Source: Camelus ferus (lineage: Eukaryota). Taken from it: a DNA stretch of 64,000 nucleotides. The notes beneath the pieces are model-generated. The model ran no database searches and had not been told where the DNA came from. It saw only the letters and a list, made by a program, of their open reading frames with translations. The stretch lies in contig NC_045732.1 in assembly GCF_009834535.1 (NCBI RefSeq), positions 30,008,001-30,072,000 of the forward strand, in the 5' to 3' direction. Each line of letters opens with the position of its first letter. The stretch's first letter is position 1. A program made the translations under genes and the position numbers. Positions 22,096 through 27,109 of the stretch are shown piece after piece.

Positions 22096-22744
22096 TGAAG
22101 GAGAAATACACTTGATATTAGTACCTTCAAGATAACTATCATAGGCATATGATTTTACAGGAATTGCTAGTTGAGTCGTCTACTTTTTCAATCAACTAAA
22201 TATCATTGGCAGTTGCCTTCTGGATAGATTCAATTGGATAGAGCTTGATACTTGAGGTGTTATTTCAGGGCCATCCATGTAATGCTAGAACAAGTTATCC
22301 AGTTTGGCAGATGCAAATGTATGCACTTTTGATCCTCCTCCTGGCTCCCTAACTATAGATTTTATAATAGAAGAAAGACTGGGGGCCTTTTATTTATAAA
22401 TAATCAATGTTATATGTAAATAGACATCCTTTCCTTTTGAGCAACTCACAGTCAGCCAGCTCTCAAACGAAAGTGGATCAGCCCTTTCTTGGCTAATGGC
22501 GTGGTCTGCATCCCAGAGGTTATCAGAATCCTTTGCAGAATGCAAATCAAACATCTTGAATGGCAAAAGGATCAAAGCACAACACCTAAACATTGTTCAG
22601 ACCTCCTGCTCATATTTTTATGCATAAGAAAACTTGAAAGAGAAATTAGAATCGAAAAGAAATGTACTTCCCAAAGTGTGTATCATTATTTAAATTTTTA
22701 GTGGATTTCTTTCTCTTGCATTACCATATTGCATTCCATTCTAG

Positions 22745-22920
22745 GGTAGTAGCTGACACGTGTGTGTTGGAGCCAAAACACTTAAGAGAGTCCTGGCTTA
22801 GCTACCCACAAGCAGTTTGACCTTGCACAAGTTATTTAAACTGTCTGGCTTCAACTTCCACATCTGTGAATGGGACTAATAATACCTCAACAGGAGGTGA
22901 GGATTAAATAGATATTAAAG
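22745..22920 (+). mobile_element. MIR SINE (interrupted by MER5A)
   Basis: gtttgaccttgcacaagttatttaaactgtctggcttcaacttccacatctgtgaatgggactaataatacctc...gaggattaaatag. Confidence 0.75.
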
Positions 22921-23091
22921 CAGTATTCTTCAGATTTTAATGTAACACATATCACCTGGGGATCGTCTTAATAATGCAGAGTCTGTGTAATTAGTCACTA
23001 GGTCTGGGGTGGCTCCAGAGATTTTGCATTTCTAATAAGCTCTCCAGTAGTACTTATGCTTCTGGTCTGTGGATCCCATACAGAGTAGCAA
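22921..23091 (-). mobile_element. MER5A hAT MITE
   Basis: cagtattcttcag...atcacctggggatc...taggtctggggtggctccagagattttgcatttctaataagctctccag...tgcttctggtctgtggatcc. Confidence 0.8.
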
Positions 23092-23335
23092 ATCTCAATG
23101 TAAAACACTGTTATTCTTCCAAATGATAGTGAGCTTGTGTTCTGTTGCCATTTTTATCTACTTCAACCTTTTCCTCAGTATCTACTCAACCAATAATTAC
23201 TGGATTCTTATTCTCTGGCAGGTGCTGTGCAGTGCATAGACTTTGGAAATTATACCCTGTCCTGTCCTCAGGAAGCTCTCAAACTATTTGAGATCCAAAA
23301 TCATCTAGCATATTTCAATAAAAAATAAATGCAAA

Positions 23336-24000
23336 TGTTAGAGCAGGCAGATAGCTAGATATGAGCAGAGAAAGAGGGACACAGACCAAATGGCAGGAAT
23401 TGGGCAGAAAAAATTGGCATAAGCCAAATGCAGGAAATCACACATCATGTAAGCACCAGGGGTCCCTGGGCAGAGAAAGAAAAACAGGAATCTTTGGGCT
23501 GATAAGGGGCCACACCTTTTGGCCTGGAGACCAACAAAGAAAGGTGAAAAAAAGCAGGAATTTCCATCATCCAAATGTAACCTTCTGTTCATTATGTCCT
23601 CATTTCAATAAAATTAGCCTTGCACGTCAGAAGTACCCATCATGCAAACAACGCCATGACACTTCCGATCCAGACTAAATAAGGATAAAAATCCCTCCTC
23701 CCTTTGGGAAAGTGGAGTTGGGATGATAATCAGCAAATACGACCCCAAGCCCTTCCCTCCCCCAAGCCCTTCCCTCCTCAATGAATATTCCACCCATTCA
23801 TTTTTACACCCTATGTAACTAACTTGTCAAAGAAACTCAGGGCAGCTGCTCACCTGAGCCTGCCCGCTTTCCCCTTGAGAGCGTACTATCCATCCCTTAA
23901 TAAATCCCCACTTTACTTTTTTTAACCACTACATCTTGTCTCTGAATTCTTTCTGGGATGGAACAAGAACCTGGAACATCGGTTGCATCTACCAGAAACA
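23336..24000 (+). mobile_element. ERV1 solo LTR, copy A (MER50/MER83-like 5' end)
   Basis: TG...CA termini (tgttagagcagg...accagaaaca); 4-bp TSD CAAA (23332-23335 and 24001-24004); AATAAA at 23899-23904; homologous over its full length to 25190-25840; no PBS downstream. Confidence 0.92.
23743..23776 (+). repeat. 17-bp perfect tandem duplication inside LTR copy A
   Basis: (ccccaagcccttccctc)x2; single copy in LTR B. Confidence 0.95.
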
Positions 24001-24538
24001 CAAAAAACAAAACCAAAATCATCCACCACCATAAACCTACTGGACACTGAGAACCAAACTTACCTACCCCTTAAGCTCACACAGCTTACTATCTTCATTA
24101 AAAATTTTAACCATTTCACTATCTTCATTAGCATAACGTCCCTATTTCAGAGAATCTTGTCTAGGTAAATAACTTGACTATTCATTATAGTAACTTCCCT
24201 AAAGTCCCATCAACTCTTTGCAACTCTGATAGAAAGCAAGAATAGGCAGCTCACACCCTAATACTCTCTAAACCTTTTAACTTAAAATCCCCGCTGTGCT
24301 GTTTCCATCAAAACTAAGTTGTACTGTCATGATCCTTACGCAATCCTAATAGTTCCCCCACACTGAAAAAGGCTCCTTTAACCAAAGTGTCAATTCTCAA
24401 TAAAATCCAACCTCACTCTTCCTCCTATGAGACGCTAGCAAAGATCTGTCAAGGTGGTGGTCTTCCTTACTGTGGTAAGGAACAAATTCAATTCTGTCTT
24501 ATGAACAGATTACACTGGTAATATTCAGGGAATCAGCA
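24001..24538 (+). mobile_element. Older ERV1-class LTR remnant (MER67/MER31-like)
   Basis: 3' end gagacgctagcaaagatctgtcaaggtggtggtcttccttactgtggtaagg...ttgtcttatgaacag...taatattcagggaatcagca-like, resembling MER4-group LTR termini; 5' boundary unresolved. Confidence 0.55.
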
Positions 24539-25068
24539 TTCCATGTTTGGAAGAAACAGACATGTGAATCAAAAGCATATTACAGAGATAGGCCATGGTG
24601 TCAATGGGTGGATTCAGAGACTTCAGCTCTTTTATTTGCCATCCCAAATAAATACATAATTTAAGTACAATCAGTATGTTTTTTTCTCTGCAAATCTTTC
24701 ACAACAAACCCCTTCAATCCCTCTCATCTCCTCACTCAGGTATCTTGATGGCAGTGCTGGTACCACCATTGACTATAATAAGGTATATGACAGGTTTATG
24801 CCCAATACTGAACTGGAAGTACATGAGACTGACATTAATCCAGCCATCGGACAAGGAAAAATCTTTTGGTGGATGCAATACCTGTGTTAAGACTTGAAGG
24901 AAGTAGGTTCACAATTGGGGAAAATCCAGCACCTAGACAGATATTGCAAGATTATGGAATTTTCAGGGAAATACCCAATTGGAGCAAACATCCATTTAGG
25001 GGCAACAGTGAGGCTACATATCCAATCATAAAAGAACACTTGTTCATGTCATGTTACATAGTTTATGC

Positions 25069-25890
25069 CAAGGCTACTCAGCATGTTGTCTTCAGACCAG
25101 CATCATTGCTATAATCTAGGTACTTGTTAGAAAAATGGAGAATTTCAGGTCCTACCCCAGACCTACTGAATAAATCTTCTTATTGCTAGTGTTAGAGCAG
25201 GCAGAGAGCTAGATATGAGCAGAGAAAGGGGGACACAGACCAAATGGCAGGAAATGGGCAAAAAGGAGGAGCACAAGCCAAATGTAGGAAACCATACATC
25301 ATGTAAGCACCAGGAGTCCCTGAACAGAGAAGCAGCAGCAGGAACCTCTGGGCCATAAGTGGTCACACCTTTGGGGGTGATAAGACGCCGACAAAGAAAG
25401 GTGGGAAAAGGCTGGAATTTCTAGTGTCCAAATGTAACCTTTTGCTCATTATGCCCTCATTTCAATAAAATTAGCCTTGCACATCAGAAGTACCCATCAT
25501 TCAAACAACGCCATGACACTTCCGATCCAGACTAAATAAGGACAAAAATCCCTCCTCCCTTTGGGAAAGTGGAGTTGGGATGATAATCAGCAAATACGAC
25601 CCCAAGCCCTTCCCTCCTCAATGAATATTCCACCCATTCATTTTTACACCCTATGTAACTAACTTGCCAAAGAAACTCAGGGCAGCTGCTCACCTGAGCC
25701 TGCCGGCTCTCCCCTTGAAAGTGTACTATCCATCCTTTAATAAATCCTCACTTTGCTTTTCTTAACCTCTAAGTCTTGTCTCTGAATTCTTTCTGGGATG
25801 GGACAAGAACCTGGGAAACTGTTTGGATCCACCAGCAACACTAGGATCCCCAAGTGATTTTTTATACACATCAAAGTTTGAGAAGAACTG
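25069..25890 (+). mobile_element. MER5A split by LTR copy B (halves about 25069-25189 and 25841-25890)
   Basis: Left half cagaccagcatc...tacttgttagaaaaatg...ccccagacctactgaat; right half ccccaagtgatttttatacacatcaaagtttgagaagaactg completes the consensus. Confidence 0.85.
25190..25840 (+). mobile_element. ERV1 solo LTR, copy B (same family as copy A)
   Basis: TG...CA termini (tgttagagcagg...accagcaaca); 4-bp TSD CTAG (25186-25189 and 25841-25844); AATAAA at 25739-25744; no PPT upstream. Confidence 0.92.
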
Positions 25891-27109
25891 CTCAAAATAA
25901 TATTCTAGAGGCCATGGAAAGTACTGAATGATTTTAAGCAGAGAAGGAACATGACTTAATTTACATTCCAGAAAAAAAATTACTCTGTATCCATTCATTT
26001 CTTCAGGATCTATGTGCTGGGCATTCAACTAACAGCTGGGAATTCAGTGCTACTTAAGGTAGATTAGATGAATCTCTCCATTCACTATTTATTCAACAAA
26101 CATTTATTGCATGCTGACTTTGATTTGACCTCTCAAGCTTGATTCAGAAATACTCCTACACTGATGACTACATTTTTAAATGAAGTCAAGTTGTGTTGGC
26201 CAGGACAAATAATCGTTGAGAATCTCCTAGGATGCTTTACTCAGAATTGCTTCACACTATCAGGCTGGTGGCTCAAACAAGAAAGGTTTTGTTGATGTAG
26301 TTTTATAAATTGTTACTGCAATGATATTTGCTGTATTGGAACTTGACTCAGTACCAGTTGTAGTATAAGATACCAATCAGTATTGGTTTTGAAAATCAAC
26401 AATATGAGATGTACAGCTTGCAAATTTAAACTTTAATATTAGATAATAGAGATGATATCAATACCATTTTTTGGTAACATATGCAAAGGATTGTCCTTTG
26501 GTGACTGAAAAGGAAAACAATAAATTCTAAGTATGTGGAGGCTCTGCTTTTTAATAATAGCCAATGTCTTATCAGAACTCATACAGATTTGGTGTTAGGA
26601 GCTCTGGAAATCTAGCTAGCCTGTTTCATGTATGTTCTAGTCTTGTTTCCTATGTGCAAGTCAGTGGGCAATGAGTGCTCAGCTTTACTTTAGGTATTCT
26701 GGGTTGCTTTGATTGCTTATGATCCACTAGGCTACAATCACTGTAGGAAAAAGTGACCACTGTGTCTAAATGTAAAACCATCATGTCCCTGACTCAGTAA
26801 CTTTCTGACTGTAGGGACATTGCATTTACTTCCTGAGTGTTAATGGTTGGGTGTTACTCTAAGACTCTTTAATTACACTCTTATAGTCTCATAAAGTTTG
26901 GAGGACACCCTATACCTTGGACTCTGACAGATTCCCTGAGGGAACAGAGATCTAGGAAAACTTCCCCAGGAGAAGCCAGCCTAGTACTGGAGTGGAATCA
27001 AGCTGTGATGTTCAGCCTTCTTGGTGACACGTGACTCCTTTCACCACAGGTCATTTTGTTTAGGATTCTCACATGGCTCATTTTCAGTGAGAGGATGTTC
27101 TAACGGGGA

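What the first reader, a model, noticed from the sequence alone, without database searches (positions are those of the whole stretch)
23336..25840. Probable gene-conversion tract between two neighbouring solo LTRs: 98% identical core, about 80-85% identical flanks
Seen in sequence: aligning LTR A (23336-24000) to LTR B (25190-25840) by hand, segment 23598-23864 vs 25455-25704 has only 4 substitutions in 250 aligned nt (98.4%), plus a 17-bp duplication private to A. The 3' 136 nt differ at 20 positions (85%), and the 5' about 260 nt look roughly 80-85% identical. The core also shares intact CpGs (caacgcc, ttccgat, atacgac) that would normally decay independently. Established: non-allelic gene conversion is favoured between close, same-orientation repeats. 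Inference: a roughly 250-bp conversion event homogenised the U3/promoter core long after insertion. The 4 differences and the duplication argue against a pure assembly collapse.
Basis: partly seen in the sequence, partly recalled or inferred. Interest (0 to 1): 0.7.

Follow-up and report, generated by a model that had tools for sequence, protein, structure and literature searches.

The report
Gene conversion between neighbouring solo LTRs
Two old retrovirus remnants that inserted separately 1.2 kb apart in a mammal genome share a 250-base middle piece, including mutations found together in no other copy examined, most likely because DNA repair copied one onto the other; this is a clean example of a known process.

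Summary
A (23336-24000) and B (25190-25840) are solo LTRs with separate 4-bp target-site duplications. The core differs at 4 of 250 sites, the flanks at 43/261 and 20/136.

The identity contrast alone is weak evidence. The core is the best-conserved part family-wide, and 10 of 3916 unrelated pairs also differ at 4 or fewer core sites.

Shared rare alleles decide it. A and B share five in the core and none in the flanks. Genome-wide, the 1-bp insertion form occurs only in A and B (2 vs 344 without). Two other alleles occur in 4 and 3 places, and the outside carriers hold only one each.

Best reading: non-allelic gene conversion long after insertion (0.9), probably A onto B (about 0.65). Contigs from public runs were too short to test the junctions.

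Extras: two other close pairs show the same signature. B's 5' part shares a private deletion with one copy 2.7 Mb away.

The process is known, and the scan noted similar cases in other genomes.

The parts
23336..24000 (+). Solo LTR A, 665 bp, TG...CA, TSD CAAA (23332-23335 and 24001-24004); short-indel lineage in its 5' part and core; likely donor
25190..25840 (+). Solo LTR B, 651 bp, TG...CA, TSD CTAG (25186-25189 and 25841-25844); patchwork with a long-indel-lineage 5' part, an A-like core and an L033-like 3' part; likely acceptor
23598..23864 (+). Maximal converted tract in A, bounded by the nearest A/B differences; minimal tract 23625-23734 spans the shared rare alleles at 23625, 23646 (1-bp insertion), 23648, 23711 and 23734
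25455..25704 (+). Maximal converted tract in B; shared rare alleles at 25482, 25503, 25505, 25568 and 25591
23743..23759 (+). 17-bp tandem duplication private to A (0 of 69 other copies); inferred to post-date the conversion
25254..25425 (+). Part of B most like the distant copy L037 (G000:C37:27337782-27338422, 2.7 Mb away, same strand); six shared rare alleles including an 8-bp deletion; approximate bounds
23899..23904 (+). AATAAA in the poly(A)-signal position of A (25739-25744 in B); with a TATA-like word at 23812-23818 it places the tract in 3' U3 up to about the start of R (inferred)
   Evidence: sequence; function not tested
24001..25189 (.). 1189-bp spacer; no primer-binding site after A, no polypurine tract before B, no Pfam match at cut-off in the frames tested; not a proviral interior

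Best explanation
A and B are two independently inserted solo LTRs of one large endogenous-retrovirus family, and a tract of 110-250 bp was most likely copied from one to the other by non-allelic gene conversion long after both had inserted, probably from A onto B. Shown: separate TSDs, a near-identical core, rare alleles shared only in the core, and flanks from different family lineages. Inferred: a double-strand break in or near one LTR was repaired from the same-strand copy 1.85 kb away without crossover, so the spacer and both TSDs survive. Pairing would start in the best-conserved block and stop where the lineages diverge, sharply so on the 5' side. Four substitutions and A's 17-bp duplication would have arisen afterwards. 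Relative age is roughly the last quarter of the copies' history (core tree: shared stem 0.026, tips 0.013 and 0.004). No function is implied; it is likely a neutral repair scar.
For: Five rare alleles are shared in the core (carried by 0, 0, 2, 3 and 1 of 69 other copies) and none in either flank. Exact scans of the genome: the 23625 allele 4 places vs 308 for the common form; the insertion form 2 places, A and B, vs 344; the 23734 allele 3 places. The outside carriers (L116, L119, L079) hold only one of these alleles each. The nearest other copy has 11 core differences from A and 9 from B, against 4 for A-B (89 copies). Among 25 copies of the same core lineage, 0 of 300 pairs have 4 or fewer core differences, and 0 of 300 have 1 or fewer in 23743-23864. 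A+B are sisters in the core tree (SH 0.95; 97) but not in the 5' or 3' trees, and B+L037 is rejected in the core (p-AU 0.002). Direction: B's nearest neighbour switches from L037 to A at about 23600-23625, and B lacks the L037-lineage core markers. Neighbour effect: 3 of 7 other independent pairs within 10 kb share 3 or more rare core alleles, vs 4 of 5763 background pairs and 0 of 5 pairs at 14-37 kb.
Against: The core is better conserved family-wide and 10 of 3916 unrelated pairs match the 4-difference level. AU tests did not reject an A+B clade in the flanks (p 0.094 for 5', 0.084 for 3'; 0.179 combined; 22 copies). All shared rare alleles lie in 23625-23734, so the right edge rests on identity alone. 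B's 3' end belongs to the same broad lineage as A's 5' part and core, so B's core may have been A-like from the start, which weakens the direction. No contig bridged a tract junction. No orthologous locus from a related species was available. The copies compared were best-scoring hits out of about 2000 candidates, so they lean towards little-diverged copies.
Confidence: 0.9

Rival explanations
1. No conversion: A and B descend from recombinant source viruses that shared this core before insertion (template switching), and the mosaic is ordinary lineage structure.
For: The family is visibly mosaic, with 5', core and 3' haplotypes reassorted among copies. Unrelated pairs with near-identical cores exist.
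Against: The allele set is found in only two copies, which lie 1.2 kb apart in a 2.09-Gb genome. Core divergence of 1.6% is far below the minimum of 8 differences among 300 same-lineage pairs, so the core is younger than the insertions.
Confidence: 0.04
2. Assembly or polishing artefact: reads from one LTR core were written into the other.
For: Short-read contigs could not bridge the junctions. Identical runs of 41-68 bp exist between A and B.
Against: Four substitutions are spread through the tract and interleaved with the shared alleles. B's base at A-position 23644 is found in 0 of 69 other copies, and the duplication is private to A. Two alleles of one locus would not differ by 1.6% (typical mammalian heterozygosity near 0.1%, recalled).
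Confidence: 0.04
3. A and B are the 5' and 3' LTRs of one provirus with a deleted interior, or a local tandem duplication.
For: Same strand and 1.2 kb apart.
Against: Each LTR has its own TSD and unrelated flanks, with no PBS after A and no PPT before B. The flanks are 15-16% divergent and from different lineages. A real LTR pair of this family (L133/L134) has one shared TSD, a PBS-like and a PPT-like motif, and 6/639 differences.
Confidence: 0.01
4. Selection on a co-opted promoter kept both cores intact.
For: The tract covers the inferred 3' U3 region with TATA-like word.
Against: Selection would preserve the common family state, but A and B share derived alleles including an insertion. No gene was identified nearby (ORF list; Rfam).
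Confidence: 0.01

Closest known systems
Non-allelic gene conversion among human LTRs (Trombetta et al. 2016, PMC4921805; first two of six parts of the text read: abstract, introduction, results, start of discussion)
   Same: Clustered derived alleles traceable to a paralogous LTR donor; patchwork acceptors with several donors; clusters mainly in U3; maximum tracts 14-450 bp, which brackets the 250 bp here.
   Different: That work used within-species Y-chromosome polymorphism and named flanking-LTR, intra-LTR and dispersed donors. Here the pair is two independent solo LTRs 1.2 kb apart, inferred from one assembly, and the event is old enough to carry 4 later substitutions.
Conversion between neighbouring Alu copies within about 10 kb (Aleshin and Zhi 2010, not held; seen only as summarised in passages of PMC6598467 and PMC8230782)
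   Same: Sharing of non-diagnostic mutations between near neighbours, falling off by about 10 kb; partial tracts that make subfamily hybrids.
   Different: LTR family rather than SINE; only 8 close pairs were examined here, so no rate estimate.
Intra-element LTR-LTR conversion in camelid LTR retrotransposons (PMC8605555, passages read)
   Same: GENECONV tracts between LTRs are reported as common (about 1,800-1,900 elements per genome).
   Different: Those counts are for LTR pairs called as one element. A and B are separate insertions. Whether this host is a camelid was not tested.

Membership tests
Non-allelic gene conversion tract | Local tract more alike than the paralogues' flanks and than comparable family pairs | tested here: met
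   4/250 vs 43/261 and 20/136; 0 of 300 same-lineage pairs as close; longest identical run 123, reached by 0 of 4309 comparably divergent pairs
Non-allelic gene conversion tract | Shared derived alleles confined to the tract | tested here: met
Non-allelic gene conversion tract | Tree incongruence between tract and flanks | tested here: inconclusive
   Best trees differ and the core rejects B+L037 (p 0.002), but the flanks do not reject A+B (p 0.08-0.18)
Non-allelic gene conversion tract | No crossover: spacer and insertion-site flanks intact | tested here: met
   Both TSDs and the 1189-bp spacer are present
Non-allelic gene conversion tract | One-way transfer shown against an unconverted orthologue or allele | not testable with these tools
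   No relative genome held; contigs too short; direction inferred from lineage markers only
Non-allelic gene conversion tract | Present in the DNA, not only in the assembly | tested here: inconclusive
   No piece bridged a junction; the argument from private interleaved differences is indirect
Solo LTR of an endogenous retrovirus | TG...CA ends with a TSD directly on both sides and no interior | tested here: met
   most family copies show the same
Solo LTR of an endogenous retrovirus | Family has two-LTR elements with PBS and PPT | tested here: met
   L133/L134, 8.8 kb apart, one TSD (CAAG), PBS-like and PPT-like motifs; interior not read
ERV1 (class I) LTR family | 4-bp TSD | tested here: met
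   the link of a 4-bp TSD to ERV1 is recalled
ERV1 (class I) LTR family | Gamma-like pol or a match to a named Dfam/Repbase family | not tested
   No repeat library among the tools; proviral interior not examined; family name unknown

The most novel reading that the evidence does not exclude
Conversion between close solo LTRs is the rule rather than the exception in this family. About a third to a half of independent pairs within 7 kb have exchanged tracts, these centre on the conserved promoter-side block of U3 and carry it across lineage boundaries, and B additionally records an older conversion from a copy 2.7 Mb away on the same chromosome. That would make B a three-source patchwork and the family a countable system for distance-dependent promoter homogenisation.
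Probability: 0.3. Interest if true: 0.5.

Novelty: new member of a known kind. Interest (0 to 1): 0.3.

Why it matters
It is a well-marked natural record of ectopic repair between LTRs that are about 10% divergent overall. It shows that promoter-side LTR sequence can move between lineages after insertion, which distorts subfamily assignment and divergence dating. The single case is ordinary. The modest added value is that 2 to 3 of 7 other close pairs show the same signature, so a genome-wide distance curve for LTRs, like the one reported for Alu, is directly computable.

Tried and rejected
Identity contrast as proof: rejected as sufficient, because the core is conserved family-wide.

Shared intact CpGs as proof: rejected, since 15 of 89 copies keep all three.

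Public runs: 20 of 23 listed runs hold 0.82-0.86 of the sampled words of 22600-26600, under three organism codes. Four were laid on B; the longest listed pieces were 62-114 bases and none bridged a junction, so this is no evidence either way. One 66-bp piece identical to B's 5' part (25355-25420) was seen in runs of all three codes.

AU tests on the flanks did not reject A+B. A full IQ-TREE run timed out after the 5' segment.

The pattern was too strict and missed L037; it was repeated, where the third hit (L126) proved not to be a family copy.

Neighbour pairs without signal: L131/L132, L137/L138, L139/L140, L119/L088 and all 5 pairs at 14-37 kb. L093/L143 shares rare alleles but has no long identical run (40 bp) and may reflect a sub-lineage. 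L141/L142 was dropped because L141 is a fragment.

Copies dropped before counts: L026 (duplicate locus); L078 (truncated; still included); L120/L121 (A and B again); L116/L119 (picked for carrying an A/B allele); four loci fetched twice.

Pfam on 4 spacer or LTR frames gave nothing at cut-off; Rfam on the window gave 0.

Literature: searches listed no paper on this locus; only listings were seen except for the four papers named. No supplements were read.

Full report
OBSERVATION. The only long repeat pair in the window is A (23336-24000) and B (25190-25840), 86.7% identical by BLAST. Each has TG...CA ends and its own 4-bp TSD, CAAA and CTAG, so they are independent solo LTRs.

FAMILY CONTEXT. 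The window lies at G000:C37:30008001-30072000 in a 2.09-Gb genome with about 2000 candidate copies per search, of which 40 were scored each time. I compared 69 other copies at first, then 89-92, then 106. These are best hits and lean towards little-diverged copies. The host is a mammal by sequence character. A 102-Mb contig numbered 37 would fit a camelid X chromosome (recalled, untested). One two-LTR element (L133/L134) has a shared TSD with PBS-like and PPT-like motifs. The ERV1 label rests on the 4-bp TSD (recalled); the family name was not determined.

WHY IDENTITY ALONE IS NOT ENOUGH. The core is the most conserved segment across the family: 7.0% mean pairwise divergence against 9.4% and 11.7% for the flanks (2346 pairs). 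Ten of 3916 unrelated pairs differ at 4 or fewer core sites, but none of the ten shares a rare allele. The CpG argument fails, since 15 of 89 copies keep all three.

WHAT DECIDES IT. A and B share five rare alleles at A 23625, 23646 (1-bp insertion), 23648, 23711 and 23734, carried by 0, 0, 2, 3 and 1 of 69 others, and none in the flanks. The adjacent 23646 and 23648 changes may be one event, leaving at least four. Exact scans of the whole genome give 4 vs 308 places at 23625, 2 vs 344 for the insertion and 3 places for 23734 (common form not counted). Exact patterns miss copies with a nearby mutation, so these are samples, not censuses. The three outside carriers hold one allele each. A-B had the highest count of shared rare alleles in 23598-23742 among 4371 pairs.

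TRACT LIMITS. The minimum is 23625-23734 (110 bp) and the maximum 23598-23864. The right half has no shared rare allele, but 0 of 300 same-lineage pairs are as close there, so it probably belongs to the tract.

TREES. A+B are sisters in the core. In the 5' part B groups with L037 (99 bootstrap; SH 0.88), and in the 3' part B sits with L033 and A elsewhere, with weak support. The core rejects B+L037 (p-AU 0.002). The flanks do not reject A+B (p 0.094 and 0.084; 0.179).

DIRECTION AND AGE. B's nearest neighbour switches from L037 to A at about 23600-23625, exactly at the tract's left edge, and B lacks the core markers of L037's lineage. This favours A as donor. But B's 3' end is of the short-indel lineage, so B's core may have been A-like already; I put A-to-B at about 0.65. 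The core tree gives a shared stem of 0.026 and tips of 0.013 and 0.004. The 4/250 divergence converts to 1.6 Myr (0.4-4.0) at the rate used in PMC8605555 for dromedary, or 3.6 Myr (1.0-9.2) at a recalled general mammalian rate. Both figures are rough and depend on the host.

ARTEFACT CHECK. Public contigs were too short to bridge a junction. The indirect argument is good: private differences of A and of B are interleaved with the shared alleles, which a read mix-up would not produce.

BEYOND THE FINDING. I picked further close pairs from the hit lists. Of 7 other pairs within 10 kb, 3 share 3 or more rare core alleles, against 4 of 5763 background pairs and 0 of 5 pairs at 14-37 kb. L135/L136 (6.9 kb apart, separate TSDs, different 5' lineages) has a 178-bp perfect block longer than any of 5764 background pairs. 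L129/L130 (3.9 kb, separate TSDs) is 3.3% divergent throughout. L093/L143 is doubtful. Background pairs are not independent and the sample is small, so this is a lead, not a rate.

THE DISTANT PARTNER. B's 5' part shares six rare alleles with L037, 2.7 Mb away on the same contig and strand. Their 8-bp deletion form was found only in these two family copies, while the undeleted parent form has 7 hits on 7 other contigs. At 18/265 differences the link is old. It is either an early long-range conversion or a shared source element; I cannot separate the two.

COMPARISON AND VERDICT. [quoted passage not shown] Earlier scan notes report similar cases in other genomes (unchecked); none was on record near this place. 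It is real and well supported, but a new example of a known process. Interest 0.3.

Noticed in passing
L135/L136 (G000:C2:95854704-95855604 and 95861581-95862481): Two independent solo LTRs 6.9 kb apart, from different 5' lineages, share a 178-bp perfect block with three rare alleles. A likely younger conversion in the same part of the LTR; an assembly error is not excluded.
   Followed up: partly
L129/L130 (G000:C2:57511086-57511986 and 57515014-57515914): Independent solo LTRs 3.9 kb apart differ by only 22/657 and share 5-6 rare alleles along their length; possibly an older whole-LTR conversion.
   Followed up: partly
window 25254-25425 and L037 (G000:C37:27337782-27338422): B shares a private 8-bp deletion and other rare alleles with one copy 2.7 Mb away; long-range conversion or shared source.
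   Followed up: partly
G000:C37:24.8-45.6 Mb: 12 of the 39 non-self top hits for B's 5' part lie in this 21-Mb stretch. May reflect LTR density or slower divergence on this chromosome; unexplained.
   Followed up: no
L133/L134 (G000:C4:34028528-34038211): A two-LTR element of this family, 8.8 kb between LTRs, with LTRs differing at 6/639 sites; young or internally converted. Interior not read.
   Followed up: partly
window 22920-23090 and both sides of LTR B: Fragments resembling the old DNA transposon MER5A (name recalled, no library check); B appears to have inserted into one of them.
   Followed up: no
window 24010-24540 and 24600-25010: The spacer appears to hold an older LTR-like remnant and a decayed CR1/L3-like stretch (resemblance recalled; no Pfam hit in the frames tested).
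   Followed up: partly
L026 and L028 (G000:C526 and C4:17469281): Same LTR with the same immediate flanks on a small contig and a large one; probably a duplicated haplotype contig.
   Followed up: no
L010:3151-3640: A more distant relative (74-77% identity) of this LTR family lies 1 kb from the L010 copy.
   Followed up: no
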